From Acidobacteriota bacterium (GTDB lineage Bacteria; Acidobacteriota; Aminicenantia; Aminicenantales; Saccharicenantaceae), in contig JADBLN010000030.1 in NCBI GenBank assembly GCA_014894455.1, forward strand, positions 13,547-62,073: 48,527 nt of DNA, read 5' to 3'. Position 1 is the first letter of the stretch, and each line of letters opens with the position of its first letter. The position numbers and the translations under genes were made by a program. Shown here one piece after another: positions 884 through 48,192 of this stretch. The notes under the pieces are model-generated. The model did not search any database and was not told the DNA's origin. It saw only the letters and a list, made by a program, of their open reading frames with translations.

Positions 884-894
884 TTTACCCTAAA

Positions 895-984
895 TCGGGG
901 ACACAATACCCATTTCCGAATTGGGCGAGACTGACATGGCCGGCAAGCTAATGTTTAATTCGGAAATTGGTATTGTGTCCCCGA
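895..984. repeat. REP-like inverted repeat with GGGGACA ends (28-bp arms)
   Basis: tcggggacacaatacccatttccgaatt (895-922) and aattcggaaattggtattgtgtccccga (957-984), 1 mismatch. A single arm recurs at 44184-44212. Confidence 0.85.
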
Positions 985-985
985 A

Positions 986-1185
986 TTAATCGCGGGGCAG
1001 GGCGACCAGGCTGAAAGCGGCGTTGCCCAAGAGGATGAGCCCGGCGACGACCATCGGCACGTGGAGACCGGCGCGGAACCCCAGCCAGGAGAATGCCAGC
1101 GAGCCGGCCATGTGGCCGGAAGTTTGCAAGGCGGTCAGGATCCCAGCGCTCCCCCCGATCGTCTTTTTCTCGAAGAGGCGGGTCA
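986..1185 (-). pseudogene. C-terminal remnant of an MFS-type membrane protein
   Basis: Reads LFEKKTIGGSAGILTALQTSGHMAGSLAFSWLGFRAGLHVPMVVAGLILLGNAAFSLVALPRD*, like the last two MFS helices. No start codon; it begins at the DUF4097 stop. Confidence 0.55.
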
Positions 1186-4759: not shown

Positions 4760-5395
4760 CTACAAAATTTTCTGTTCGAGTCTTTTCTTGAGGCTAGCGG
4801 CGCTATAAGTAACATCGACGGAGTAGTCCAGCTTGCCATCCCTGCCCTCGGCGTACCAACATCTGGAGAGATAGACGTTTATGCTATACTTGTCAGAAGT
4901 TCCGCTGTCCGCCAATTCCCAATCAGCAATCGCATACTCAAGCGCTGCGCCGCCGGCTTCCAGCTCCTTCTCATTCGCCCTGTCTTCTTTGGTCTTCGGA
5001 TCCCAGATCCAATGCTTCTGAGGCGGGCCGTATTTTTCACTCAGCATGCTGACGATCCGATCGAAGGTGCTTTGCGGCCCCGGACGATGAGGACCCTTAG
5101 CGCATTCACTAGCCGTGCCCGAATAGAAAGAATTGGCGATCGAATAAAAGCTCAAATAACAGGAAGCCCCGGCGAATTCGCCTTTAAATACCAGCTTGCT
5201 GCCGTAATCGCCCTTGAGTTGCCTGTAGCCCTGTTCTTTCATGGTTTGAATGATTTGATCGCGACTCGCTCCCCAAGGCACTCCCGCGAATCCATCCGGT
5301 ACCTCGCCCGCCCAGGCCATGCAGGAGAACATGACAACCAATACTGCCAATAAAGCTGAAACTGCGACTCGATCGATCGTTTTTGTTTTTCTCAT
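4760..5395 (-). CDS. Hypothetical exported protein
   Basis: AAGGAGG RBS before ATG 5395; signal peptide (AWA/GE); FAGVPWGAS N-terminal motif; lower GC than the backbone. Confidence 0.75.
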   Translation of the reverse strand: MRKTKTIDRVAVSALLAVLVVMFSCMAWAGEVPDGFAGVPWGASRDQIIQTMKEQGYRQLKGDYGSKLVFKGEFAGASCYLSFYSIANSFYSGTASECAKGPHRPGPQSTFDRIVSMLSEKYGPPQKHWIWDPKTKEDRANEKELEAGGAALEYAIADWELADSGTSDKYSINVYLSRCWYAEGRDGKLDYSVDVTYSAASLKKRLEQKIL

Positions 5396-5481
5396 CGTTT
5401 CCTCCTTTTTCGCATAGAGCATGAATGCGCCGGTTCGGTCGACAGGACGGGAGCGTGGCTACTTGGCCTTCGTGATCTTAA

Positions 5482-5912
5482 GGATAAGAATTTGCTTTTT
5501 CTGAGCGAGCTGAATTCCCCCTCCCGGCATTGAATTTGCCCCCCAGTCCATGGTGGAACTGTACCCCCGGCCGGGCGGCGATGTCAATAACCGCGAAAAC
5601 CGCGCCCGAAGATCCAATAGGGGCGAGAAACCTCGCCGCGACGGCTAAAAGACGATAGACTTCTGTTCCCCCCTGATCACAAAATACTCAACAATATTCC
5701 CCTTTGACCTTTCCCCGGTGGGCGTTGGCGTAGAGTCCATAATAGCGCATCATGACCTGACCCTTATCAGGGATGTGGGAGGTCACCCGGGCGATGAACT
5801 CCAGATAATTCATCGTCTCCTGCTCCACGCCGCCCCGGCCCCGGCGATAACCGAACTTGCCCTCGGGTTCCAGAAACGTCAGCCTCTCCATGGCGAGCAC
5901 CGGTCGAATCAA
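5482..5912 (-). mobile_element. IS91/ISCR-family rolling-circle element remnant (truncated Y2 transposase plus putative oriIS end)
   Basis: ORF 5912-5688 has LEFIARVTSHIPDKGQVMMRYYGLYANAHRGK, the conserved IS91-type C-terminal motif, but lacks the HUH/Tyr catalytic region. The element ends in GCAAATTCTTATCC, resembling ISCR oriIS termini (TTCCTATAC). Confidence 0.7.
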
Positions 5913-6050
5913 AGAACCTGGTTTCTGTTCCTGTGTTTGTTTACGAGGGGAACTGACATCCGGAGAAAGTCCATGATGAGGACGTGGGAGGGCCGAGCCG
6001 AGGGCCTTCGGCCTAGTCCAGGAAGTAAGATTCTCGACGATCTCGTCGCA

Positions 6051-6252
6051 GAGGCGTGGAGAGACGGGGAAAAAGGGGATTGTATTGTTGTGCTAGCGAG
6101 GATGATATAGAATTGGGCTAGCATCAAGGAGGGCCGATATGAAAAAACTATTCTGCTTTCTTGTCGGGATAAGTTTCCTAGTTTCCTGCGGGAGCAGACA
6201 ACCTCAGATCGATAAGGTCATCGAAGACGGAGTAGAGGTCGTCCTGAATCAT
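6051..6252 (+). repeat. Shared 202-bp header (upstream region, RBS, first 38 codons), copy 1
   Basis: Ungapped alignment to 7467-7668; identical gctagcatcaaggagggccgatatgaaaa; about 89% identity over the 114 coding nt. Confidence 0.88.
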
Positions 6253-7326
6253 CTTGAGCCGTACACGCTTATAGGAGAACGAGACAATTTAAATCTTGAA
6301 AAACTATTCACCGTAGATTTTGAACGCGATGAATTTGCAAAGATCGGAATCCCAAGGATCGGAGGATTTAACGTTGATTCCGAGGGTAATATCTATGTTT
6401 GGAGCTGGCCAGGCTCAGAGTATTTCATCTTTAAATTCGACAAAAGCGGGGAATATGTGAATTCATTCGGTCGTAAGGGCCAAGGGCCTGGTGAGATCGA
6501 AATGCTTGTATATCTCAGAGTAAACGCAAAGGATGAAGTCATTGTTTTTGATGATACGAGAAAAAAGATAATTATTTTCGATAATGAAGGTTCGCTTATT
6601 GGGGAGATTCAACTTGAGCGCCATATTCTGTATGCAACGCCTCTTGCCAACGGTAAGATACTAGCTTTGTACGAGCGATTCAATCCGGAGGAAGGAATAG
6701 CTGACCTCCCTGTCGTCCTAATGGCATCTGGTTCCGAACAAGACAGAATTCTTCATTCTGGGGAAAGGATTCCTAATTGGTTTAGAGCGCAGAAAATTAA
6801 TGCGATAACTACGGCTCAAAGCTATAGCCAATGGAGCATCACGGATAAACATATTTTTATCGGCAATAAGGTGAGTGGATATCAATTTCTGGTCTATGAT
6901 TTCAATGGGATGCTCGTCAAAAAGATCAGAAAGGAATACCGTCCTGTGCCAGTTCCTGAAGAAATTAAAAAAAGTCTCCTGAAAGTATTCAATAGATCAG
7001 ATCGCGAAAGAACACAAGTGCTGCCAAAGGTATTTTTCCCTGATGCGATGTTTCCTATTCAGTACTTTTTTACGGATGACCACGAGCGGTTATATGTCAT
7101 GACCTTTGAAAAAGGAGATGGGCCAAGGGCTTTCATGTACGATATCTTCAACTCGGAGGGCTTTTTCATTGGCAGGGTTTCCCTGGATAATTCCGGAAAT
7201 GAATCCAATGAGATATGGGGCGGGCCTTTTGATGTGAGAGCAAGAAACGATAATCTTTATTGCATGAGAGCTAAAGACAGCGGCTACCAGGAATTGACTG
7301 TTTACAAGATGGAATGGACAAAATGA
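6139..7326 (+). CDS. 6-bladed beta-propeller lipoprotein 1
   Basis: Lipobox FLVSC; VDSEGNIYV...FKFDKSG..FGRKGQGPGE (NHL-like blade); DIFNSEGFFIGR; AT-rich. Confidence 0.88.
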   Translation: MKKLFCFLVGISFLVSCGSRQPQIDKVIEDGVEVVLNHLEPYTLIGERDNLNLEKLFTVDFERDEFAKIGIPRIGGFNVDSEGNIYVWSWPGSEYFIFKFDKSGEYVNSFGRKGQGPGEIEMLVYLRVNAKDEVIVFDDTRKKIIIFDNEGSLIGEIQLERHILYATPLANGKILALYERFNPEEGIADLPVVLMASGSEQDRILHSGERIPNWFRAQKINAITTAQSYSQWSITDKHIFIGNKVSGYQFLVYDFNGMLVKKIRKEYRPVPVPEEIKKSLLKVFNRSDRERTQVLPKVFFPDAMFPIQYFFTDDHERLYVMTFEKGDGPRAFMYDIFNSEGFFIGRVSLDNSGNESNEIWGGPFDVRARNDNLYCMRAKDSGYQELTVYKMEWTK

Positions 7327-7466
7327 ATGTCCCCTGCGCCGACCCTTCCCCGGCCCTCTGTGCTAGGATCAACTTGGCTTTCGTGAGCGGGCCGGGGAAG
7401 CCCCCACCTTTTTGGTTCCCATCATCAACCCCCCTTTTCGGCCCGCACTTCGGGCCATGGCCGAGA

Positions 7467-7668
7467 GAGGCCAGGAGAGGCGGGGAAAAGGGGAATTATA
7501 TTGTAGTGCCTGCGATGCTGAGGTAGAGTCGAGCTAGCATCAAGGAGGGCCGATATGAAAAGAGTTTGCTGTTGTCTTCTCGGGATAAGTTTCCTGGTTT
7601 CCTGCGGGGGCAAACAACCTCAGATCGATAAGGTCATCGAAGACGGCGTAGAGGTCGTCCTGAACCAC
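7467..7668 (+). repeat. Shared 202-bp header, copy 2
   Basis: See 6051-6252. Confidence 0.88.
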
Positions 7669-8700
7669 ATCAATCCCTATATCGTTAGTGAAAAACCGAT
7701 GTCTTTCCGTCTGGAAGAGGAATTGCGGATCGATTTGGCGACGGAAGAATTTGTTAATCTTGGCATATCCTTTCCAGATCAAGTCCATGTGGATTCCGCA
7801 GGTAACATCTATATTTTTGATCGCCAGAGGAAGTCGGAATATTTCATTTTTAAATTCGATAAGTCAGGTAGGTTTGTGAGGTCTATGGGTCGATTTGGGC
7901 AGGGCCCTGGGGAAATCCAGGGCGTGACGTCGATTGGCATTAATTCCCGTGACGAAATCTGGACTAATAGTTCTGGTACTAGAAAGATAGTTGTTTACAA
8001 CAGAGAAGGGAATTTGATCAGGGAATCGCGATATGCACCCGTCTGGTGGGCTACGACGCTTCTGGAGAACGGAGGCTATATTGTGCTGGGAAACATCAAA
8101 GAAACAAGCCCGGCTGGCACAGGGTTTCACCTTCGGCTCTTCGACGCCGGTTTTCATGAGGTGAAACTTCTAGATTTTTATGATATGTCTCGTCTGAGGT
8201 CCGGGGGCAGAACGACCGGCTTGATTGTTTCTTTACACTGGAAAGTCCATAAAGACAGGATATTTATCGGCAATGATCAGCGTGGTTATGAAATATTGGT
8301 TTACGACCTTGGCGGGCGACTCCTAAGAAAAATCCGCAAGGAGTACGTCCCTGTCCAATATCCTGAGAATTTCAGGAAAGATACAGAAATCATGGCCAAA
8401 CGCAGACCGGAGATTTATGCGCCGGATTATACACCTCCATTCAATTCGTTTTTTATCGATGACAACGGATATCTTTTTGTCATGACTTATGAAAAAGGGG
8501 CTGAACCTGACGAATATCTGCACGACATATTCAATGAAGAGAGCATCTTCGTCGGAAGGGTTAGCCTCGGATTGTCTGGATCGATGGGGAGGGCGCTTAA
8601 CCATATGCACGCCGTTGCCGAAGGCGACCGATATTACCGCATGAGGTTTAAGGAAGACGATTATCCTGAATTGATTGTGTATAGGATGGTCTGGAACTAA
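7555..8700 (+). CDS. 6-bladed beta-propeller lipoprotein 2 (paralog)
   Basis: Lipobox FLVSC; VDSAGNIYI...FKFDKSG..GRFGQGPGE; same architecture as 6139-7326. Confidence 0.88.
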   Translation: MKRVCCCLLGISFLVSCGGKQPQIDKVIEDGVEVVLNHINPYIVSEKPMSFRLEEELRIDLATEEFVNLGISFPDQVHVDSAGNIYIFDRQRKSEYFIFKFDKSGRFVRSMGRFGQGPGEIQGVTSIGINSRDEIWTNSSGTRKIVVYNREGNLIRESRYAPVWWATTLLENGGYIVLGNIKETSPAGTGFHLRLFDAGFHEVKLLDFYDMSRLRSGGRTTGLIVSLHWKVHKDRIFIGNDQRGYEILVYDLGGRLLRKIRKEYVPVQYPENFRKDTEIMAKRRPEIYAPDYTPPFNSFFIDDNGYLFVMTYEKGAEPDEYLHDIFNEESIFVGRVSLGLSGSMGRALNHMHAVAEGDRYYRMRFKEDDYPELIVYRMVWN

Positions 8701-9170
8701 AGCACGGGGAGCCAGAGGCCCGAGGAGAGGGCATGGCCCCGATTGATCAAAAGGACGCCGGTGACGGCGGATGATCGCGCCTCATAGGGGAAAGTCGCTT
8801 GAAGGGGCGTGGGAGTCTCAGTCAGGTCCGGAATAATTCTTGGGTCTTTAAAAGTCGCAAGCTCTTCAGCGGCTTGGTACCGCACCTTATCGAACTCCGC
8901 CATTCTGCTATCCGTTTTCAAGATCGTAAGCAGGGCGTTCTTAGCATTCTCCGTTTTCAAGCCGGACAGCGCCTTACACAACTTATCTGCTCCATACCAC
9001 CAACTTCCTTTTCCCTTCCCGTCTGCACACTCAAGAAGAGTGGAAAGAATGTGCGGTGATACATCCTCGCCTGCTGAAAGGAGAGCGTCAAACGATTCCT
9101 TGACATCATCCAATTCATACTCTCTTACCAAAACATCTCTGATTGCCGATATGATCTCAGCTTCAGTCAT
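8697..9170 (-). pseudogene. HEAT-repeat-like protein, probably truncated at about 8815
   Basis: RBS then MTEAEII...VRYQAAEELATFKDPRIIPDL (HEAT-like). After that the sequence shifts abruptly to GC-rich DNA that does not look like protein coding. Confidence 0.55.
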
Positions 9171-9285
9171 GGTTTTCTTCCCCTTTAAAAATAATAGAAT
9201 CTTGCCTATTCCGCGGCGTGGCGAAGAACAGTTTTCGATATAGAATATTTCCCGCTCGACCGTCATGCTCGACGCATGACAAAGA

Positions 9286-9325
9286 AAAGAGAGGCAGTTT
9301 CCTCCGGAGGAGACGGCCTTCTTTT
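9286..9325. terminator. Bidirectional intrinsic terminator after yfcC
   Basis: aaaagag-AGGCAGTTTCCT-ccgg-AGGAGACGGCCT-tctttt hairpin with A/T tracts on both sides. Confidence 0.65.
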
Positions 9326-9329
9326 GTTA

Positions 9330-10736
9330 TCAGTTCGGCCCCCATTTCATGAGGACGGGGGGGACGAGGGATAGGGCCGCGAAAAGGACCCAGAGGACGA
9401 GGAGCGGCACCAGCCACTTGGCCCATTTCTCCCACTTCAGCCCGGCCAGGCCCAGGACGCCCATGGTCACGCCGGAGGTCGGCAGGACGGGGTTGATGTA
9501 CTCGGCCAGCTGGAAGGCGAAGACGGACGTCTGCCGGGTGATGCCGACGAGGTCGCCCAGCGGGGCCATGATGGGGATGGTCAGCGCCGCCTGGGCCGTC
9601 CCCGAATGGACGAAGAAGTTGATGACGCACTGGGAAACGAACATGAGCTCGGCCGAGATGAGCGGGTGGAACTGGGAGATCGTCCCGGCCATGGCCGCCA
9701 GGATCGTGTCCAGGATCCGGCCGTCCTGGGCCACGATCAGGATGGCCCGGGCCGTGCCGATGATCAGGGCCGCGTTGACCATGTCCTTGGCCCCCTCGAC
9801 GAACGATTTCCCCATCTCTTCGTTCTTGAGCTTGCCCGCGACCCCGGCGAAGATCCCCATGGCCAGGAAAACACCGCCGATCTCGTAGATGAACCATTGG
9901 TATTTCAGGATGCCGAAGATCATGACGCCGAAGCCCAGGCCGAAGACCGCCATGACCCGCTTGTGGGCGGCCGTCAGCACGAGCTTCTCGATCATCTGGC
10001 TCCCGACCTGGAGATTTTTCCGCTTCTCGAGGTCCTCTTCGTAGGTCGGGCTCTTCGTCGGGTCCTTGTGGATCCGGCCCGCGTAGCGCATGACGATGGC
10101 GATGACGATGGCCGTCCCGCCGGCCCAGACGATGAGCCTGTAGCCCAGCCCGGAATAGAGGGGCAGGCTGGCGATGCCCTGGGCGATCCCAACCGTAAAC
10201 GGGTTGAAAAAGGCACCGGCGAAGCCGGCCGCCGCGCCCAGGAACGGCAGGGCAACCCCGACGATGGTGTCGTAGCCCAACGACAGGGAGAGCGGGACGA
10301 AGATCAGTATGAAGGGCATGGTCTCCTCGCACATGCCCCAGATGGCGCCTCCCAGGGAAAAAATGATCATGGTCACGGGGATGAAAAGGACCCGGAGAGT
10401 CTTGCTTCGTCCGAACTTCAAGGCCAGATTGTGGATGACCGTCGAAATGGCCCCTGTCTTCTGTATGATGGAGAACGCACCGCCGAAGATAAAGACGATG
10501 ACGATGATGGCCGCGGCGTCGACGAAGCCCTTGGCCGGCGAGACGAAGAGCGCGCCGAGCCCCTGCGGCCGGCTCTCGGTCCGCTGGTAGGACCCGGCCA
10601 CGGGGATAGTCCGGCCGTCCTTCTCCACGCGCTTGTATTGGCCGCCGGGGATGATCCAGGTGGCGACCACGGTCAGGACGACCATGATGTAGATGAGGAC
10701 GAGCGTGTGGGGGAGCTTCAGCTTCTTCAGGCTCAT
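9330..10736 (-). CDS. yfcC: YfcC/DcuC-like family transporter (putative dipeptide or basic amino acid transporter)
   Basis: LPHTLVLIY...TWIIPGGQY; GMCEETMPF; NPFTVGIAQGIA; SGTAQAALTIPIMAPL; PTSGVTMGVL. ATG 10736 overlaps the cyanophycinase stop (ATGA). Confidence 0.9.
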   Translation of the reverse strand: MSLKKLKLPHTLVLIYIMVVLTVVATWIIPGGQYKRVEKDGRTIPVAGSYQRTESRPQGLGALFVSPAKGFVDAAAIIVIVFIFGGAFSIIQKTGAISTVIHNLALKFGRSKTLRVLFIPVTMIIFSLGGAIWGMCEETMPFILIFVPLSLSLGYDTIVGVALPFLGAAAGFAGAFFNPFTVGIAQGIASLPLYSGLGYRLIVWAGGTAIVIAIVMRYAGRIHKDPTKSPTYEEDLEKRKNLQVGSQMIEKLVLTAAHKRVMAVFGLGFGVMIFGILKYQWFIYEIGGVFLAMGIFAGVAGKLKNEEMGKSFVEGAKDMVNAALIIGTARAILIVAQDGRILDTILAAMAGTISQFHPLISAELMFVSQCVINFFVHSGTAQAALTIPIMAPLGDLVGITRQTSVFAFQLAEYINPVLPTSGVTMGVLGLAGLKWEKWAKWLVPLLVLWVLFAALSLVPPVLMKWGPN

Positions 10737-15818: not shown

Positions 15819-15894
15819 TGGTGGACGGTAGGAGACTCGAACTCCCGGCCTCAGCGTTGCGAACGCCGCGCTCTCCCAACTGAGCTAACCGCCC
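15819..15894 (-). tRNA. tRNA-Ala(CGC)
   Basis: 76-nt cloverleaf GGGCGGTTAGCTCAGTTGGGAGAGCGCGGCGTT-CGC-AACGCTGAGGCCGGGAGTTCGAGTCTCCTACCGTCCACCA; G3:U70 Ala identity pair; encoded CCA. Confidence 0.97.
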
Positions 15895-16139: not shown

Positions 16140-16484
16140 ATGGCTAAAGCGCTGCTCGTCCTGTTCCTGATCGTCGTGGCCGCATTCTTCATCTACCGGC
16201 AAACCAGCCAGGCGCCTTCGGAAGAAGAGGAGATGGTCGCTTCCTTTCAGGACCGCTACGCCGTCGTCGTCCAAAAGTTCACGAGCGCCGCGGGCCGGGC
16301 CGGCGCGCTGGGACTCGACACGCTCGCCGACTCCGATTCCGCCGCCGACCAAGTCCTCAAGCTCCGGGACGAGCTGGTCCAGCTTCGAAAGACGCTGACC
16401 GAAGAGAAGGCCATCGGCAAGGCCGCCGCGCTCGCGGAAAAGATCGAGTATTTCTGCAAGAAAAACGACATCATCCGGCCTTGA
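16140..16484 (+). CDS. Small membrane-anchored hypothetical protein
   Basis: N-terminal TM segment (MAKALLVLFLIVVAAFFIY) followed by helical region; overlaps the GH36 start. Confidence 0.7.
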   Translation: MAKALLVLFLIVVAAFFIYRQTSQAPSEEEEMVASFQDRYAVVVQKFTSAAGRAGALGLDTLADSDSAADQVLKLRDELVQLRKTLTEEKAIGKAAALAEKIEYFCKKNDIIRP

Positions 16485-18292
16485 CAGCCCAACTTCTCGG
16501 AAAACCCATCCGCACCGGGCGACTGGTCCGGCGGCTGGAGAAAGCGCGCATCGAGGCCGGCGTCGAGAGAGCGGCGCACGGATACATCCTCAAGGGCACG
16601 GTTTCTGGCCGCCCCGGACGCCTGGAGATCTTCCGGACACCCGCCCCGCCGGCGTTCCTCCTCAACAACTGGCAGTCCTGGGGCCCGATGGAGCGCATCA
16701 CCCCTTCGACCAGGTTCCCCGAGCTCGAGGCCATCGTCCGTGATAACAGCCCTTATCTTTTCTCGCCGCTGCCGGACGTCCTTTTGCGCGGCCCGGTGAG
16801 CGACTATTTCGCCGCATGGGAGGGCACGGTCGCCGGGTTCCTGACCTCCCGCATCGGCCACCCGTTCTTCACCGTCGAGGGCGGAGACCTCGTCGGCTGG
16901 GTCGATTATTTCGACGCGGAATTCGACGCACCGGTCGCGCTCGAGCCCCTGGCCGTCCTTTCGGGCGGCGCCGTCGAGGATCTTCTCGACGTCTACGGCG
17001 CACTCGTCAAGCGGGCCAATCGCGTCCGCATCAACGCCTGGAACCCCGTCGGCTGGTGCAGCTGGTATCACTATTTCGGGAAGCTCGTCTGGGACGACGT
17101 CCTCGAGAACCTCGACATCGCAGCCCGCAACCGGAAGTCCTTCCCCTTCGACGTTTTCCAGGTCGACGACGGCTACGAAACCGACATCGGCGACTGGATG
17201 TCGCCCAAGTCGGGCTATCCGGACCTCCCCGGTCTGGCCCGGGCCATCGCCCGGAAGGGATTTAAAGCCGGAATCTGGACGGCGCCGTTCAGCGCGGCCG
17301 CGACTTCCGAGTTGTTCGCCAAGCACCCGGACTGGATGATCCAGGAGGACGGCCGGCCCAAGTTCTGCTACCGGGGCTGGGGGAAACCGATCTACGCCCT
17401 CGATACGACCCATCCGGAAGCGAAGACCTGGCTTCATGAGATGGTCACGGGCCTCAGAAAAGCCGGATTCTCATACCTCAAGATCGACTTTCTCTTCGCC
17501 GCGGCCATGCCCGGGACGAGGCGCAAGCGCGTCACCCCGGTCCAGGCCTACCGGGAGGGCTTGGGCGTCGTCCGCCGGGCGGCGGGAAGGGATTTCATCC
17601 TCGCCTGCGGCGCGCCCCTTCTGCCCTCGACCGGGCTCGTGGACGGCATGCGCGTCGGCGAGGACACCGCCCCCTACTGGAAAACCAAGCCTTCGGGCTT
17701 CCAGGGCCCGAACGCCTACTTCGCCCTCAAGAACGCCCTGCTCCGCCAGTTCATGCACCGGGCTTTCTGGCTCAACGACCCGGACTGCCTGCTCCTGCGC
17801 GGCCGGGAAACCGAGCTTACCCGGAACGAGCGGGAGCTTTACGCCCTCGCCGCCGGCGCGCTCGACAATATGGTCATCGCGAGCGACAAGCTCTCTCTCC
17901 TCGGCCCTGAGGAGAAAAATCTTTTTCTGCGCGCTCTCGCCCTCCGGAGCGGCAGGAGCCGGGTTTCAGGGCTGCTCGGGGAGGACGCTTATGTCATTCA
18001 CTCCAGGGGCGGTCCATCGGGTGACGTACGCCTCGGCGTCAATTTATCCGATGAGGAGGCCGTCGTCGGGGGGATTTCCGTGGCCCCCCGGTCCGGGGCG
18101 CTCCTCGAACCGGAATTGGCGGGAGGAGTCAAGGGACGAGCCTTCGCAGCGGACGTGGACCCCCCGTCCTGCCGGCTTCGCCACCGGCTTTGCAGTGCCG
18201 GTGCTGGCAACCGGCAGCACTGCCACCGGCTTGGCAGTGCCGGTGCTGGAGACCGGCAAGGGCGGTGGCAAGGCCGGGGCCCCGGCCGCTGA
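16481..18292 (+). CDS. Glycoside hydrolase family 36 (alpha-galactosidase-like)
   Basis: GWCSWYHY, FQVDDGYE, GIWTAPF, YLKIDF, MRVGED, WLNDPDC. The last ~55 aa are read from a repeat element. Confidence 0.9.
   Translation: MTAQLLGKPIRTGRLVRRLEKARIEAGVERAAHGYILKGTVSGRPGRLEIFRTPAPPAFLLNNWQSWGPMERITPSTRFPELEAIVRDNSPYLFSPLPDVLLRGPVSDYFAAWEGTVAGFLTSRIGHPFFTVEGGDLVGWVDYFDAEFDAPVALEPLAVLSGGAVEDLLDVYGALVKRANRVRINAWNPVGWCSWYHYFGKLVWDDVLENLDIAARNRKSFPFDVFQVDDGYETDIGDWMSPKSGYPDLPGLARAIARKGFKAGIWTAPFSAAATSELFAKHPDWMIQEDGRPKFCYRGWGKPIYALDTTHPEAKTWLHEMVTGLRKAGFSYLKIDFLFAAAMPGTRRKRVTPVQAYREGLGVVRRAAGRDFILACGAPLLPSTGLVDGMRVGEDTAPYWKTKPSGFQGPNAYFALKNALLRQFMHRAFWLNDPDCLLLRGRETELTRNERELYALAAGALDNMVIASDKLSLLGPEEKNLFLRALALRSGRSRVSGLLGEDAYVIHSRGGPSGDVRLGVNLSDEEAVVGGISVAPRSGALLEPELAGGVKGRAFAADVDPPSCRLRHRLCSAGAGNRQHCHRLGSAGAGDRQGRWQGRGPGR
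18181..18279 (+). repeat. 99-bp structured repeat (two ~42-bp hairpin units), copy 1
   Basis: Identical to 41629-41727 by manual comparison. Confidence 0.92.
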
Positions 18293-19696: not shown

Positions 19697-19759
19697 GGGG
19701 TCAAACCTACCTTTTACACCCTATTTGACCCGAAAGGTGTAAAAGGTAGGTTTGACCCC
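19697..19759. repeat. REP-like palindrome with GGGGTCA ends (24-bp arms); extra half-site at 19803-19826
   Basis: ggggtcaaacctaccttttacacc-N15-ggtgtaaaaggtaggtttgacccc; same family as 36473-36527. Confidence 0.9.
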
Positions 19760-30973: not shown

Positions 30974-33900
30974 TTATCTCAATAGCCGGACGGTCTGGAT
31001 CTCGAAGGACTTGAGCCGGACGGGGATCGACTCGGCCTCGACGGTTTCACTGCCACCCGTCCGCCTGGTCGTTATACCGAGGAAGAATCCACTTGCCAGC
31101 CGCACATCCGTGGCCCTGCCGGCGATCTCCCGAAGGCGGGCGACGGGTGTTCCGTCGGCGTCGAGCCAGAGCGCCTGGACGATGACGTTGGGCTGGTCGA
31201 CGGACAAGAACGATTCCCCCGCCGTCGTGATCCGGCCTTTGTTCCGGGCCGGGATCCAAGTCGCGATGAGCGGCGTGTGGACATCCCAGCCGAATCGGGA
31301 GGCGGCGACACGGTCCGAAGCGGGGGCCGCGCCGTTACCTGGATCGGCAGGCGGAGCGCTCGTCAGGCTATAGCGGAATTCGATTCGTCCCTCCTGGCTC
31401 GCCTTGAAATTCGTCATCCAATAGTTGTTCATGGCATAGGAAAAAACCCAGGCGTTCGCGAGGTCGAGGCGCGTGAGCCATTTTCCCGTGTTGATGTCGC
31501 CGAACTGGACGAGCGGCGCCTCTACGGGAGACCAGACGACCCGGGCGTCCTTTCCGGAAAACTCGACCCAGTTTTGGACCGTGTGCCAATCGAGGGTCGT
31601 GCCGGAGAGCTGTTCGGCCCCCGGGGCCATGTCGGCGTCGGCGATCTCGAACCGGACGTTCGGCCCGACCTGCCCCGATACGCCCGCCTCCGGCCGCTTT
31701 TCCCTGAGCGGGGAGGAAAGCGGACCGAGCTTGGCGCTGAGCGCGCCGGGCAACCCCGGCCCGACTTCGAACGGAAAGGCGAAATAGACGGCCTCGGGCG
31801 CGAACGTTTCCTCTTTATCGAGAATGTTGACGAGGTCGACGCGCTTGACGTCGTCGTAGAGGATGATGCGTTGCTCGAGTGACGGGCACATCTTCGGCGA
31901 ACTCTTGATGATGAGGCTTGCGGCCACCGGCCCCTGCCAGCCGGCCTCGACCTTGGCCGACTCGGGCGACCAGCGGTTGAACGCCGCCCGCTTGGTCATG
32001 TCGTCCACGGCCTTGCGGCCGCCGACGGGTTGCTCATAGATGTAGGCGTTGAGCGGCCAGGGGCAGGCCTTGTCGACGAGCTCGCGGCCGAGCTCCTTGT
32101 CGTAAAGACTCGAGATGCCTCCCGTCTTCGCGTCCACGGTGACACGGTAGAAGCGGTTTTCGATCGTATTGCCGCGAAACTCGGAGACCGGTCCTGCCGC
32201 TTGAACCGGCGCCCCGGACGCCTCTCCCGCCGTGACCGCGAACACGGCGTAGCCCATCGACGGGACGTTCTGCGCGAGGACCAGCATGGCGTCATCGCCC
32301 AGCATCTGGAACTTCGCGCCGCTGCCGAGGCGCCGGTCGACGACCCGGAGCTTCCCTTTCGCCTCGCGCAGCGGCCCGGCCGGAAGAGTCACGCGGACGA
32401 CGTCCGTCCTCGGCCAGGAGAGCGGGTTGAAGACGGCGAACTCGAATTCGCCGTCGGCGCTGATGAGCCGGACCAGGGCCTCGGTCCCACGCCGCAGGAG
32501 CGTCCGCGAGGCCTCCCGCGCCTCATAAGCGAAGCTCGACTTCGCCGCCCACTGGCCGCGGGCCAGTTCAGACTGCGGTTCGTCGATCGAATTGTAGGCC
32601 CCCCAGGTGTGCTCGTCGTAGAGCATGGCCAGCTCGTGGGCATCCCGGATCTGGCCCTCCGGGAAGCGGAAGGCCTTAGCCGGGTCGAGATTCGCCGCCA
32701 GCGCCGATATTTTTTCGGCCGAGACGAGGTCGCTGTGGGTCATGCGGTTGAGCCCGGTCTCGAAGGACGTCGAGGCGACGCCGTCGGTCCAGTAGTCGGG
32801 CCAGCCGAGCTTGTGGACGGGGAGTGATTTCCCGTAACCCTTCTCTAAGCGACCGAAAAATTCGCTCATCGTGGCCAGCCGGAGGCGCGGCGAGACGTAA
32901 CGCTCGTTCCATTCCTTGACCAGGTCGGAGAGGCCGCGCCCGGGCGGGCAGTTGTCCGTCGTCCAGGCCCCGATGTTGAAGGCGATGATGTCGTAGGGAT
33001 AATCGCCGCGCGCCTCGAGCTTGGCCAGATAGTTCCCGACTTTCGGGGCGCTTTTCGCGACCGGCTCGTGGAGGAGGAGCTCGTAGTTCCCGAACAGGTA
33101 ATGCTCGCCGTTCCAGTGGAGGATGCGGCTGCCGTCGGGCGATTCCCACCAAAAAGCGTTCGGCCGGCGGAGAGGGGCGCGGGAGCGCGTCTCGTTGATG
33201 CCTGTGGCGAAATAGCGGATGCCGGCCTGGGCGAAAACCTGGGGCAGGGCCCAGGAAAAGCCGGTGACGTCGTTGTTCATGGCCGAGCGGACCTCGAAAT
33301 CGTAGGTCCGGGCGTACTCCCGGGCCAGGTCGACGGAGCGTAGGAGTTCTTCGTGGGAGAAGCCGTCGGACTGATTGAGGTAGAGCCCGGACAGCTCGAC
33401 GCGGCCGGCACGGATGAGGTCGGCCAGGGCGCGGACATCGGCCTCGGGACGGGTCCGGATGAAATTCTGGAGGGCCCAGGAGATCTCGATGTTCCAGCGG
33501 AACCTGGCGTCGTCGGGATAGGCGTCAGTTTGCCGGCAATAGTCGATGACGGAGTCGAGGTATTCGACGTGGTTTTGGGCGACCCGCGTCTGAAGCTCGG
33601 TATAGCCGATGTCCGTGTGGGAATGATGGAAGAGATAGACGGACCAGCGGCGCTGGGGGGCAAGGGTGATCTCGCGGCTGAGGACGGTCGTACCGATCCT
33701 GACCTCGAAGCGCGCCCTGACGGGCTTCGCGGCCTCGAGAACGCGCGTCTCCACGACGTTCCTGCCGGGCTCGAGGCTGAGCGAGGTCACGTCCAGGCCG
33801 AGAGGCTTGCCGGCGATCCAAGCCTTGACGGAGGCCGGCGCGCCTGCGGGGCCGGCCTGGTCGATGATGAGTTGGACGACCTGCTTGACCACCGCCCCGT

Positions 33901-34093
33901 CCCTGACCAGGAAAACGGTCGGGACGACGTCGAGCGCGGGTTTCGTGACCTGGTTCACGGAGGGCCCGGACGCCGGCGCCGTCTGGGACGATGTCTCTCC
34001 ATGGGCGGACAGGACCGGCCCAGCGACAAGCGCGGCCAAGAGCAAGGGGACCGCGCAGATAAGGGCGGCTTTCCCGTTGTTTCTTTTTCGCAT
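30974..34093 (-). CDS. GH38-like (alpha-mannosidase family) glycoside hydrolase, exported
   Basis: HHSHTDIGYT, NDVTGFSW, FWWESPDGS, WPDYWTDG, LYDEHTWG, VFNPLSWPR, IENRFYRV, MNNYWMTNF; AAGGAGG RBS. Confidence 0.88.
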   Translation of the reverse strand: MRKRNNGKAALICAVPLLLAALVAGPVLSAHGETSSQTAPASGPSVNQVTKPALDVVPTVFLVRDGAVVKQVVQLIIDQAGPAGAPASVKAWIAGKPLGLDVTSLSLEPGRNVVETRVLEAAKPVRARFEVRIGTTVLSREITLAPQRRWSVYLFHHSHTDIGYTELQTRVAQNHVEYLDSVIDYCRQTDAYPDDARFRWNIEISWALQNFIRTRPEADVRALADLIRAGRVELSGLYLNQSDGFSHEELLRSVDLAREYARTYDFEVRSAMNNDVTGFSWALPQVFAQAGIRYFATGINETRSRAPLRRPNAFWWESPDGSRILHWNGEHYLFGNYELLLHEPVAKSAPKVGNYLAKLEARGDYPYDIIAFNIGAWTTDNCPPGRGLSDLVKEWNERYVSPRLRLATMSEFFGRLEKGYGKSLPVHKLGWPDYWTDGVASTSFETGLNRMTHSDLVSAEKISALAANLDPAKAFRFPEGQIRDAHELAMLYDEHTWGAYNSIDEPQSELARGQWAAKSSFAYEAREASRTLLRRGTEALVRLISADGEFEFAVFNPLSWPRTDVVRVTLPAGPLREAKGKLRVVDRRLGSGAKFQMLGDDAMLVLAQNVPSMGYAVFAVTAGEASGAPVQAAGPVSEFRGNTIENRFYRVTVDAKTGGISSLYDKELGRELVDKACPWPLNAYIYEQPVGGRKAVDDMTKRAAFNRWSPESAKVEAGWQGPVAASLIIKSSPKMCPSLEQRIILYDDVKRVDLVNILDKEETFAPEAVYFAFPFEVGPGLPGALSAKLGPLSSPLREKRPEAGVSGQVGPNVRFEIADADMAPGAEQLSGTTLDWHTVQNWVEFSGKDARVVWSPVEAPLVQFGDINTGKWLTRLDLANAWVFSYAMNNYWMTNFKASQEGRIEFRYSLTSAPPADPGNGAAPASDRVAASRFGWDVHTPLIATWIPARNKGRITTAGESFLSVDQPNVIVQALWLDADGTPVARLREIAGRATDVRLASGFFLGITTRRTGGSETVEAESIPVRLKSFEIQTVRLLR

Positions 34094-36472: not shown

Positions 36473-36527
36473 CAAGAGGGGGTCAAACCTACCTTTTGCA
36501 GCAAAAGGTAGGTTTGACCCCCTCTTG
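36473..36527. repeat. REP-like perfect palindrome (27-bp arms, 1-nt spacer) between convergent genes
   Basis: caagagggggtcaaacctaccttttgc-a-gcaaaaggtaggtttgaccccctcttg. Confidence 0.92.
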
Positions 36528-47118: not shown

Positions 47119-48192
47119 CTAGGCTCGGGCGTAGGCGTCGAGATCGAGGTCGGTGGCCGGGTCGGGGCGGCGGGCGAACTTCTTGAGGGCTAGGGCGCCG
47201 ACCATGGCCGCGTTGTCCGTGCAGAGTTTCGGGGAAGGAATATAGGCGGGAAGGCCGGCGTCTCGGGCGAAGTCCTGGAAGCGCGCCCGCAGTCTCGTAT
47301 TGCGGGCCACGCCGCCGCAGAGGACGAGCGACCGGGGTTGGACCGCATCGGCGGCACGGCGAAGGTTATCGACAAGGGTCCGGGCGACAACCTCCTCGAA
47401 GCTGGCCAGGAAATCGGGGAGGCGCGCGTCATCCTTGACGATCCCGTGCTCCCGGATGTGTTTGAGGGCCGCCGTCTTGAGGCCGCTGAAGCTGAAATCG
47501 AGGCTCCGGTCTTTCGTCCGCGGCACGGCGAAAGGAAACGCCTTGGGGTCGCCGCCGCGGCCGAGCTTCTCGATGACCGGCCCGCCGGGATAACCGAGGC
47601 CGAGGAACTTGGCGATCTTGTCCAAGGCCTCCCCCGCCGCGTCGTCGCGCGTCCTCCCCAGGAGCTTATATGAAAGCGGCTCCTCCATCAGATAGAGGGC
47701 CGTGTGCCCGCCGGAGACGAGGAGCCCCAGGACGGGATACTCGATGCCGGGGTTTTCGAGAAAACACGCTTCGAGATGGGCCTCGAGGTGGTCGACGCCG
47801 ACGAGCGGTTTCTTGTGATAGTAGGCCAGCCCCTTGGCGAAGGACAGGCCGATGAGAAGCGAGCCGATGAGCCCGGGGCCCTGGGTCACGGCGTAGAGGT
47901 CGATTTTCTCGAGCGCGACGCCGGCCCGGCTCAGTCCTTCGCTCACGATGACCGCGATCGTCTTGATGTGCTGGCGCGAGGCGAGCTCCGGCACGACCCC
48001 GCCGTACGGCGCGTGGACTTCGTCCTGGGAGAGAACGATGTTGCTGAGGACGTCCGGAGCGGCCGCGGGCTCGGGGACAAGTGCCGGAGGTACAAAAAGC
48101 ACCTCCGGCGCGTGTCCCCTTTCTTGCGCGGCAGTCCGCAGCACGGCCGCGGACGTCTCGTCGCACGAAGTTTCGATGGCTAATACCAGCAC
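47119..48192 (-). CDS. tsaD: tRNA N6-adenosine threonylcarbamoyltransferase TsaD, with an N-terminal loop insertion
   Basis: IETSCDETS, YGGVVPELASRQH, GPGLIGSL, HLEAH, VSGGHT, DDAAGEALDK, FSFSGLKT, CTDNAAMV. Confidence 0.97.
   Translation of the reverse strand: MLVLAIETSCDETSAAVLRTAAQERGHAPEVLFVPPALVPEPAAAPDVLSNIVLSQDEVHAPYGGVVPELASRQHIKTIAVIVSEGLSRAGVALEKIDLYAVTQGPGLIGSLLIGLSFAKGLAYYHKKPLVGVDHLEAHLEACFLENPGIEYPVLGLLVSGGHTALYLMEEPLSYKLLGRTRDDAAGEALDKIAKFLGLGYPGGPVIEKLGRGGDPKAFPFAVPRTKDRSLDFSFSGLKTAALKHIREHGIVKDDARLPDFLASFEEVVARTLVDNLRRAADAVQPRSLVLCGGVARNTRLRARFQDFARDAGLPAYIPSPKLCTDNAAMVGALALKKFARRPDPATDLDLDAYARA
48073..48119. repeat. GGGGACA-ended palindrome inside tsaD
   Basis: ggggacaagtgccggaggt-N9-acctccggcgcgtgtcccc (19-bp arms, 2 mismatches). 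Confidence 0.85.

What the first reader, a model, noticed from the sequence alone, without database searches (positions are those of the whole stretch)
48060..48140. Palindromic element inserted in frame in the essential gene tsaD
Seen: between ETSAAVL and DVLSNIVLSQ, normally a short beta-turn, there are about 20 extra residues (AQERGHAPEVLFVPPALVPEPAAA). Their DNA is a 47-bp hairpin with the same GGGGACA...TGTCCCC ends as the intergenic repeats. Established: Rickettsia palindromic elements insert into surface loops of housekeeping proteins. Inference: an analogous repeat-driven peptide-insertion process in an unrelated lineage; together with the GH38 and GH36 cases, this makes three coding invasions in 48 kb.
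Basis: partly seen in the sequence, partly recalled or inferred. Interest (0 to 1): 0.72.

Follow-up and report, generated by a model that had tools for sequence, protein, structure and literature searches.

The report
REP hairpin translated inside tsaD
A short mobile-type DNA hairpin that normally sits between genes lies in frame inside the vital tRNA-modification gene tsaD, where it adds a floppy 18-residue loop; this is known from other bacteria, but here one loop is occupied again and again across a whole genus.

Summary
tsaD (window 47119-48192, minus strand, 357 aa) carries a 47-bp imperfect palindrome at 48073-48119. With its AAGAAA flank it makes a 54-bp, 18-codon insert (Q23-P40) in the beta2-beta3 turn.

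It is a diverged copy of a genome-wide REP-like family ("A": AAGAAR + GGGGACAYGTACC-loop-GGTACRTGTCCCC, about 100 copies, mostly intergenic). The sister species has the site empty. Of 21 congeneric alleles read, 11 carry family-A-like hairpins in the same turn. Of 107 metagenomic homologues, 56 carry REP-type peptides there and 0 carry them elsewhere in the protein. Contigs from two independent runs diverge exactly at the element's edge into other family-A-type elements.

The likely mobiliser is a RAYT-type Y1 transposase. The genome's only such gene is flanked by the sister family B. In relatives a shorter RAYT class is flanked by family A, but that class was not found in this assembly.

Intragenic REPs are already published (PMC3733652), and earlier notes of this scan report repeats in tsaD of other phyla. 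I class this as a new member of a known kind, with an unusually clear hotspot. Other genes elsewhere in the genome (hrpA-like, a second GH38, YfiH-like) do carry in-frame copies.

The parts
47119..48192 (-). tsaD coding sequence (357 codons plus stop), the only tsaD in the assembly
48073..48126 (-). The whole insert relative to the empty allele of the sister species: 54 bp, 18 codons, Q23-P40 (QERGHAPEVLFVPPALVP). It consists of the family's 5' flank (CAAGAAA on the coding strand, 48120-48126) plus the hairpin core.
   Evidence: The core is stop-free in all six frames.
48073..48119 (.). 47-bp imperfect palindrome with GGGGACA / TGTCCCC ends
48073..48091 (.). left arm of the hairpin (plus-strand coordinates)
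48092..48100 (.). loop between the arms as reported; the RNA fold pairs part of it and leaves a 5-nt loop
48101..48119 (.). right arm of the hairpin
48127..48192 (-). tsaD codons 1-22 (strands beta1 and beta2 with the ETSCDET motif), upstream of the insert
891..988 (.). intergenic long hairpin with the same GGGGACA...TGTCCCC ends (arms 32 nt, 94% complementary)
19697..19759 (.). intergenic family-B copy, 63-bp variant
36479..36521 (.). intergenic family-B copy, 43 bp: GGGGTCAAACCTACCTTTTGCAGCAAAAGGTAGGTTTGACCCC

Best explanation
A REP-type (repetitive palindrome) element of family A has become part of the tsaD reading frame.

Shown:
- It is a family member.
- It adds exactly 18 codons between A22 and E41.
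- It has no stop codon in any of the six frames.
- It lies in the turn between strands beta2 (12-19) and beta3 (47-55), which the model leaves disordered.
- The sister species lacks it.
- Congeners and close strains hold other family-A-type copies at the same place, 1 to 3 copies, in three reading frames.

Inferred:
- The element was put there, or exchanged, by the machinery that spreads the family. That machinery is most likely a RAYT-type Y1 (HUH) transposase acting on the single-stranded hairpin, with recombination between copies as a second route.
- Any copy whose length is a multiple of three is simply translated as a floppy surface peptide that does not disturb TsaD, so it persists as neutral 'decoration'.
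- The turn is hit repeatedly because it is permissive, and because a resident copy attracts or exchanges with further copies.
For: Family and membership:
- 143 hairpins with GGGG[AT]CA...TG[AT]CCCC ends were found in the 2.95-Mb genome.
- In a looser scan of 146 hairpins, 117 are intergenic, 8 are at gene edges and 21 are inside ORFs called by my own crude gene finder.
- The 29-bp subfamily (51 copies) has the consensus flank AAGAA just before the core, as the tsaD copy does.
- The tsaD copy plus flanks aligns best to the 44-bp subfamily: 45 identities, score 30. Random genome windows give 4.6 +/- 2.0, with a maximum of 16 in 2979.

Empty and filled sites:
- G009 is sister to G000 with support 97/90 and has 94-95% identical TsaD. 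Its turn reads RAPEAVAAPE, with no hairpin.
- Of 21 alleles of the genus, 11 carry GGGGAC...GTCCCC hairpins in this turn, 8 are short (7-12 aa) and 2 are long without a family-A hairpin.
- Of 7 alleles from other genera of the order, 5 have 5-aa turns, 1 has 11 aa and 1 has a 60-aa insert of another kind.
- Of 120 metagenomic homologues, 107 have both anchor motifs. Of these, 56 have REP-type peptides in the turn, 31 have short turns and 20 have long turns without my motifs. The motifs occur elsewhere in the protein in 0 of 107.

Strain level: contigs of independent runs X3 and X4 follow the window up to 48072 (1 and 5 differences over 373 bases) and then run on into other AAGAAG-flanked elements.

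Structure: mean pLDDT is 87.2, with only residues 24-40 below 50.

Mobiliser:
- The one Y1_Tnp gene of G000 (C69, 321 aa) has family-B copies within about 80 bp upstream and about 25 bp downstream.
- In relatives, each long RAYT is bracketed by its own long hairpin family. A 203-219-aa RAYT class is bracketed by family-A copies.
- The 29-bp family-A pattern occurs in 24 of 25 genomes of the genus and in 0 of 16 from other genera of the order.

Other hosts: the hrpA-like, second GH38 and YfiH-like genes carry in-frame copies inside or between Pfam domains. The hrpA copies are present or absent among congeners.
Against: - The tsaD copy is diverged. A model built from the 29-bp subfamily finds it only at E 0.24 genome-wide. 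The stem has 3 mismatches, the loop is unlike other copies, and the 3' YTTCTT flank is missing.
- The RAYT class that flanks family A in relatives was not found in G000. At the syntenic place G000 has another gene. The assembly has 94 runs of N and is 96% complete, so absence is not shown either.
- No target-site duplication is visible against the empty allele.
- Transposition, translation of the insert and activity of the enzyme are not shown. The only RNA-library contig over the site is from a relative (12 differences in 128), and such libraries can hold DNA.
- The tsaD tree is poorly resolved inside the genus (5 open forks), so the number of independent insertions cannot be counted.
- My gene calls are home-made. 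8 of the 13 ORFs with hairpins 'inside' proved on reading to be chance hairpins, upstream of the true start, or unresolved.
Confidence: 0.87

Rival explanations
1. One ancient colonisation rather than repeated hits. A family-A copy entered the turn in the ancestor of the genus. The present variety then comes from gene conversion with other copies (concerted evolution), local duplication and deletion, and the 'empty' alleles are secondary losses.
For: - The frame-2 copies of G000, G018 and G022 share both the 5' CAAGAA(A/G) flank and a similar 3' junction, GA(G/C/T)CC.
- Even 'empty' alleles of the genus have turns of 7-12 aa, against 5 aa in 5 of 7 alleles from other genera, and they keep the RAP(D/E)...APE frame.
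- Tandem copies occur in G016, G018 and G022.
- Close strains differ in subfamily at an identical junction, as conversion would give.
Against: - The AAGAA flank belongs to the family consensus, so shared flanks do not prove common descent.
- Filled and empty alleles are interleaved on the tree, and G000's sister is empty, which needs many clean in-frame losses.
- Three reading frames and at least two orientations are in use.
Confidence: 0.3
2. The hairpin or its peptide is kept because it does something. It could be an mRNA structure about 70 nt into the gene that tunes tsaD translation or stability, or a functional extension of TsaD.
For: - The stem is strong (z -6.4) and lies near the 5' end of the mRNA.
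- More than half of the homologues keep some insert at this site.
- REPs are reported to act on RNA in other bacteria (PMC3733652, passages read; 10.64898/2026.03.23.713779, listing only).
Against: - 8 of 21 congeners and 31 of 107 homologues do without an insert.
- Sequence, copy number, frame and orientation all vary.
- The peptide is predicted to be disordered.
- No Rfam family matches at E <= 1.
Confidence: 0.07
3. A natively variable linker that is palindromic by chance, or an assembly chimera joined at a repeat.
For: - MAG contigs often break or join at repeats. One contig of this genome ends inside a copy (C111).
- The allele of G007 is out of frame in its assembly.
Against: - Chance expectation is 0.02 per window, and the alignment score is far outside the null.
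- The frame stays open and both halves of TsaD are collinear.
- 21 other assemblies and 107 metagenomic proteins show the same architecture.
- Contigs of other runs enter an element from the tsaD side at the same base.
Confidence: 0.02

Closest known systems
Intragenic REPs (GTAG- and CGTC-tagged palindromic repeats; Di Nocera et al. 2013, PMC3733652, passages read)
   Same: These are short palindromic repeats, mostly between genes. Some lie wholly inside ORFs of known proteins as singles, dimers or clusters, encoding about 20-30 or more residues. The authors argue that they sit in linkers or loops. RAYT genes are flanked by the repeats. Different REPs at about the same site of one gene are noted for Xanthomonas recB. 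An RNA helicase is a host in O. terrae, as hrpA is here.
   Different: Family A has no GTAG or CGTC tag: its ends are GGGG/CCCC and GTAC lies next to the loop. The host lineage is different (records with the same repeat are labelled Candidatus Aminicenantes). I did not see tsaD named as a host in the passages read, and the list of hosts (Additional file 3) could not be opened. The hotspot here spans a genus and differs between strains.
REP / REPIN elements with their RAYT transposase (PMC2817692, PMC3116915, 10.1101/2022.05.22.493013: search listing and start of abstracts only)
   Same: The copies are imperfect palindromes, on the order of 100 per genome. They cluster, often in alternating orientation. 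A Y1_Tnp gene, single in this genome, is bracketed by copies. Both RAYT classes show a His-hydrophobic-His motif and a Tyr before NPV (the motif names are recalled).
   Different: Classical REPs are by definition extragenic. The RAYT that brackets family A in relatives was not found in this genome. No biochemical link between these RAYTs and these hairpins has been tested.
Rickettsia palindromic elements (RPEs; Ogata et al. 2000/2002, known to me only through PMC3733652 and recall)
   Same: Palindromic repeats inserted in frame in conserved, presumably functional proteins, with orthologues that lack them.
   Different: The lineage is unrelated and free-living. The element is much shorter than RPE-1 (size recalled). 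A candidate transposase exists here, whereas CGTC-type REPs, including RPE-4 and RPE-6, 'apparently lack a dedicated transposase' (PMC3733652 abstract). Sequence likeness to RPEs was not tested.
Earlier notes of this scan on repeats in tsaD of Patescibacteria/CPR genomes (e1-880943, e1-839938, e1-901624, e1-1106603; unchecked AI notes)
   Same: The same gene is involved, with in-frame repeats in floppy loops. Some are linked to REP-type transposases, and relatives carry different cassettes at the same place.
   Different: These are other phyla, other repeat families and tiny genomes. I did not check whether it is the same loop.

Membership tests
REP / REPIN-RAYT elements | Short (about 20-50 bp) imperfect palindrome able to form a stem-loop | tested here: met
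   Arms of 19 nt, 89% complementary. Fold z-score -6.4.
REP / REPIN-RAYT elements | Many dispersed copies per genome, predominantly extragenic, often clustered in alternating orientation | tested here: met
   143 to 146 hairpins were found, 117 of 146 intergenic. Clusters occur, for example, on C5, C12, C15, C64 and C79.
REP / REPIN-RAYT elements | The tsaD copy belongs to the family by sequence, not only by shape | tested here: met
   It has the AAGAAA flank, both 7-nt ends and the inner CCGGAGG/CCTCCGG. Alignment score is 30, against a null maximum of 16 in 2979 windows. The 29-bp model alone gives only E 0.24.
REP / REPIN-RAYT elements | Copies bracket a Y1 (IS200-like) RAYT gene | tested here: inconclusive
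   Met for family B in G000. Met for family A in relatives G009, G013, G018 and G022. The family-A-type RAYT was not found in G000, whose assembly is gapped.
GTAG / CGTC REP superfamilies (PMC3733652) | Conserved GTAG or CGTC tetramer at one end of the repeat | tested here: not met
   The family-A consensus has GGGG/CCCC ends and GTAC beside the loop. Family B holds GTAG, but inside the stem.
Rickettsia palindromic elements | In-frame insertion in a conserved ORF, with orthologues lacking it | tested here: met
Rickettsia palindromic elements | Sequence similarity to an RPE family; Rickettsia lineage | not tested
   No RPE sequence was at hand. Records holding the repeat are labelled Aminicenantes and Caulobacter, not Rickettsia.
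MITE | Terminal inverted repeats with a target-site duplication | tested here: inconclusive
   No duplicated bases flank the 54 bp when compared with the empty allele of G009. Only one comparison was made, and by eye.
TsaD / Kae1 (host gene) | Pfam PF00814 over the whole protein; alignment to solved TsaD | tested here: met
   E 5.2e-90. 8iey_A at 2.1e-78 and 6nak_B at 3.4e-77.

The most novel reading that the evidence does not exclude
The beta2-beta3 turn of TsaD may not be just a tolerant spot. It may be a preferred, self-renewing harbour for REP-type elements. A resident hairpin would recruit or exchange with further copies, by RAYT action or by conversion. Because the gene is essential, only clean in-frame changes survive, which would shield the element from the sloppy deletions that purge repeats elsewhere. 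That would explain three things: why more than half of the alleles in this clade are occupied, why close strains differ at one junction, and why the scan's notes report repeats in tsaD of unrelated phyla. It would also make TsaD a natural reporter of REP activity.
Probability: 0.2. Interest if true: 0.65.

Novelty: new member of a known kind. Interest (0 to 1): 0.45.

Why it matters
- It extends in-frame colonisation of core genes by REP-type repeats to an uncultured, free-living lineage. Records with the same repeat are labelled Aminicenantes.
- It links one of the repeat families to a bracketed RAYT gene.
- It documents with many natural alleles that one turn of an essential enzyme accepts 0 to about 50 extra residues.
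- The site is useful as a permissive site for engineering TsaD.
- The site is also a marker of REP turnover between strains, and a test case for whether REP spread is targeted or merely filtered by selection.
- It is a practical warning for annotation and for MAG assembly, since contigs break at these copies.

Tried and rejected
1. nhmmer with a model of the 29-bp subfamily finds the tsaD copy only at E 0.24. I replaced this with pairwise alignment against all longer copies plus a random-window null.
2. The window's GH38 and GH36 genes have no family A or B hit and no paired ends. A weak CCGCTTT...AAAGCGG hairpin in GH38 (31679-31738) may be a decayed 40-bp-type copy, but I could not show it.
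3. Rfam finds nothing at the hairpin at E <= 1. In the whole window it finds only a tRNA.
4. Search for a family-A RAYT in G000: only the C69 gene matched, at 37% identity. The syntenic locus holds another gene.
5. RNA evidence: the three RNA runs held 5-10% of the sampled words. The one that I laid (X18) gave contigs of relatives (88-99% alike). One reaches from tsaD codons into an element, but this does not show transcription of this allele. No contig of X3, X4 or X6 bridged 48078-48098.
6. The G007 allele has a 52-nt hairpin with the same ends, but the gene is read in three frames in that assembly. I cannot tell sequencing error from decay.
7. 8 of the 13 ORFs with hairpins 'inside' are not real intragenic copies: two chance hairpins (C17, C81), three upstream of the true start behind antisense-looking N-termini (C76:23167, C87, C112), and three unresolved or weak (C53, C79:20988, C96).
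8. Literature: 0 papers hold both 'Rickettsia palindromic element' and 'O-sialoglycoprotein endopeptidase'. Six papers hold 'Aminicenantes' and 'palindromic', and none is about REPs judging by title and start of abstract (listing only).
Its list of REP-bearing ORFs may or may not include tsaD.
10. The place look-up in the scan's notes for this genome gave nothing.
11. One search failed on a bug of mine and was repeated.

Full report
WHAT IS THERE

The last gene of the window is tsaD, at 47119-48192 on the minus strand, 357 aa. It matches Pfam PF00814 at E 5.2e-90 and solved TsaD chains such as 8iey_A (2.1e-78) and 6nak_B (3.4e-77). It is the only tsaD match in the 2.95-Mb, 125-contig genome.

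At 48073-48119 lies a 47-bp imperfect palindrome with GGGGACA and TGTCCCC ends.
- It is the only match to GGGGACA-N15-45-TGTCCCC in the window, with 0.02 expected; 2 of 100 shuffles gave a match.
- Its arms are 19 nt and 89% complementary.
- As RNA it folds at -51.3 kcal/mol, against -29.9 +/- 3.3 for shuffles (z -6.4; 0 of 200 fold as well).

HMMER aligns solved TsaD chains to residues 1-19 and 47-341 only. About 27 residues therefore stand where T. maritima TsaD has about three.

THE REPEAT FAMILIES

The genome holds 143 hairpins with GGGG[AT]CA...TG[AT]CCCC ends and at least 70% arm complementarity. They fall into two families.

Family A:
- The core is GGGGACAYGTACC, a short loop, then GGTACRTGTCCCC. 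The 29-bp form has about 52 copies.
- Longer-stem variants of 40, 44, 49 and 52 bp also occur.
- Oriented copies show a conserved AAGAA just before the core and often its complement after it.

Family B:
- The window copy at 36479-36521 is typical. It is 43 bp, with about 42 copies plus 63-bp variants.
- Its flank is AAGAG.

On the coding strand the tsaD copy reads CAAGAAA followed by the hairpin, so it carries the family-A flank. With its flanks it aligns best to a 44-bp-type copy on contig C79, with 45 identities and score 30. For 2979 random genome windows the mean is 4.6, the sd 2.0 and the maximum 16. A profile made from the 29-bp form alone finds it only at E 0.24, so this is a diverged member with a long stem.

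Of the 53 29-mers of family A, 46 are free of stop codons in all six frames. The tsaD copy is too.

WHERE THE COPIES LIE

With a home-made codon-usage gene finder (2499 genes, 89% coding), 117 of 146 hairpins are intergenic, 8 touch a gene end and 21 lie inside a called ORF.

I read the translations of the 13 ORFs involved.
- Two hold chance hairpins.
- Three have the copy upstream of the true start.
- Three are unresolved or weak.

The ones that hold up, with Pfam domains on both sides, are:
- tsaD.
- An hrpA-like helicase (C76), with three family-B copies all read as GSNLPFAAKGRFDP. One lies between HA2_C and OB_NTP_bind and two lie inside DUF3418.
- A GH38 mannosidase on C79, with several family-A copies.
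- A YfiH-like Cu-oxidase_4 protein (C31), with a 49-bp copy.
- A ROK gene that ends at a contig end inside a copy.

The hrpA copies are present in some congeners and absent in others. Site 2 is filled in G000 and G004 and lacks the copy in G009, G017 and G023; G022 has unrelated residues there.

In this window the other copies (891-988, 19697-19759, 36479-36521) are intergenic. The window's own GH38 (30977-33958) and GH36-type gene (16481-18289) have no family hit and no paired ends.

EMPTY AND FILLED ALLELES

TsaD was found in 39 of 41 genomes searched (G000, 24 of the same genus, 16 of other genera of the order). I read the turn in 21 alleles of the genus and 7 from other genera.

The sister of G000 is G009 (support 97/90; 94-95% identical protein). 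Its turn reads RAPEAVAAPE, with no hairpin. Against it, G000 has a clean 54-bp (18-codon) addition between A22 and E41, plus one neighbouring codon indel. I saw no target duplication.

In the genus:
- 11 of 21 alleles carry GGGGAC...GTCCCC hairpins in this turn, in one to three copies.
- They are read in three frames: GTRTSGTCP-type, GHVPEVHVP-type and GDCPRSGTVP-type. At least one copy is in the opposite orientation.
- 8 of 21 are short (7-12 aa).
- 2 of 21 are long without a family-A hairpin.

Outside the genus, 5 of 7 turns are 5 aa, one is 11 aa and one (G034) has a 60-aa insert of a different nature.

Filled and empty alleles are interleaved on the TsaD tree, which is poorly resolved inside the genus.

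A wider sample gave the same picture. Of 120 metagenomic homologues (75-93% identity), 107 have both anchor motifs. Of these, 56 have REP-type peptides in the turn, 31 have short turns and 20 have long turns without my motifs. The motifs occur elsewhere in the protein in 0 of 107. None has the peptide of this window.

STRAINS

Contigs of two independent runs (X3, X4) follow the window to base 48072, with 1 and 5 differences in 373 bases. They then continue for 59 and 67 letters into other AAGAAG-flanked elements. X4's begins like the 40-bp subfamily. Close relatives of this population thus hold a different family-A-type element at the very same junction. No contig bridged the hairpin, and the RNA-library contigs came from more distant relatives, so transcription of this allele is not shown.

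STRUCTURE

AlphaFold2 on an alignment of 26 sequences gave mean pLDDT 87.2 and pTM 0.86. Strands lie at 2-8, 12-19 and 47-55. Residues 24-40 are the only stretch with pLDDT below 50. The repeat-encoded residues Q23-P40 are therefore a predicted disordered extension of the beta2-beta3 turn. I could not measure distances to the active site or to the TsaB/TsaE interfaces.

LIKELY MOBILISER

G000 has one Y1_Tnp (PF01797) gene, 321 aa on C69. Family-B copies lie about 80 bp before its start and about 25 bp after its stop.

Homologues occur in 34 of 41 genomes. In relatives, several long RAYT genes are bracketed by their own long hairpin family. A shorter class (203-219 aa, Y1_Tnp E 2.2e-8) is bracketed by family-A copies in G022 and G013, and has them close by in G018 and G009.

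That class was not found in G000. The place syntenic to G009's copy holds another gene. The assembly has 94 runs of N and is 96% complete, so loss is not proven.

The 29-bp family-A pattern is present in 24 of 25 genomes of the genus and in 0 of 16 from other genera of the order. In the public species collection the same core occurs in records labelled Candidatus Aminicenantes.

INTERPRETATION

Shown:
- Family membership.
- In-frame addition in a disordered turn.
- An empty sister allele.
- Repeated and variable occupation of the same turn.
- RAYT genes bracketed by these families.

Inferred:
- RAYT-mediated insertion or exchange.
- Neutrality of the insert.
- Retention of the peptide in the protein.

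I cannot separate many independent insertions from one ancient colonisation followed by conversion, duplication and loss. Shared flanks are part of the family consensus and so do not decide the matter.

COMPARISON WITH WHAT IS KNOWN

Di Nocera et al. 2013 (PMC3733652; abstract and passages read) describe REPs inside genes in several phyla. The highest numbers are in Opitutus terrae and Rickettsia conorii, where they equal RPE-4 and RPE-6. The repeats encode 20-30 or more residues, sometimes at the same site of one gene in related species, and RAYT genes are flanked by GTAG REPs.

The present case is of that kind. It differs in four ways: it lacks a GTAG or CGTC tag (family A), the lineage is different, the host gene is different as far as I could see, and the hotspot is denser. 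The paper's list of host ORFs is in a supplement that I could not open.

I found no paper on REPs in Aminicenantes (listing only). No paper couples RPEs with the old name of TsaD.

Earlier notes of this scan (unchecked AI notes) report in-frame repeats in tsaD of Patescibacteria genomes. The scan has therefore seen the same theme on other DNA. I did not test those claims.

VERDICT

This is a real, well-supported in-frame REP-type insertion. I class it as a new member of a known kind, of moderate interest because of the genus-wide and strain-level hotspot in an essential gene.

Noticed in passing
G000:C76:38086-42090 (locus L060 501-4505): An hrpA-like helicase carries three in-frame family-B copies, all read as GSNLPFAAKGRFDP, at about aa 577, 1031 and 1179. 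Congeners have or lack them site by site. At the third site the copy seems to replace about 20 residues.
   Followed up: partly
G000:C79:38200-40695 (L062), G000:C31:8366-9163 (L061), G000:C111:5991-6356 (L063): A second GH38 gene and a YfiH-like Cu-oxidase_4 gene carry in-frame family-A copies. A ROK-family gene runs into a copy exactly at the contig end.
   Followed up: partly
loci L065, L071, L077, L081 and others: The identical 26 specified bases of the family-A 29-bp core occur in records labelled Caulobacter / Caulobacteraceae. They are often in pairs of opposite orientation, with different flanks (…TCGATTG or …GGTTTA before the core) and TGC/TTC loops. This points to related RAYT systems in two phyla, or to transfer between them.
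   Followed up: partly
L025 (G034, another family of the order), tsaD turn: A 60-aa insert in the same beta2-beta3 turn is not a family-A hairpin. It contains two decayed repeats of the flanking tsaD segment (ECETPANVLDSG, ECETSACVLEGS, against SCDETASAVLEG).
   Followed up: no
G000: C108:14896-14938, C28:44227-44269, C46:42-84, C62:8155-8197, C66:40974-41016: Five ORFs called by my gene finder run 30 nt into a family-B copy and end at the TAG of its GTAGG motif. The paper on GTAG REPs describes the same for stop codons.
   Followed up: no
L033-L047 (relatives): Several long RAYT homologues of the genus are bracketed by their own 50-75-bp hairpin family (for example GTGTCAGACCTACC..., AAGAAGGTACCGGGTCTACGC..., AAGGGACCTGGTCTTCGC...). 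Several REP/RAYT pairs therefore coexist in the genus.
   Followed up: partly
L020 (G007) 1297-1372: The tsaD allele has a 52-nt hairpin with the same ends, but the gene is read in three frames in that assembly. This could be indel errors or a decaying copy.
   Followed up: partly
G013:C4:223173-224217: A second, broken tsaD-like copy (several frames, one TGA) lies beside an intact one in that genome. It could be contamination, a strain mixture or a pseudogene.
   Followed up: no
window 5243-9332: My crude gene finder calls few and weak genes in this stretch. Nothing in Rfam reaches the gathering score there.
   Followed up: no
window 15822-15894 (-): A tRNA gene, the only Rfam match of the window (62.1 bits).
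   Followed up: no
window 18150-18289: The C-terminal tail of the GH36-type ORF (…HRLCSAGAGNRQHCHRLGSAGAGDRQ…) is repetitive and overlaps a strong local hairpin (-38.8 kcal/mol). It may lie beyond the true stop.
   Followed up: no
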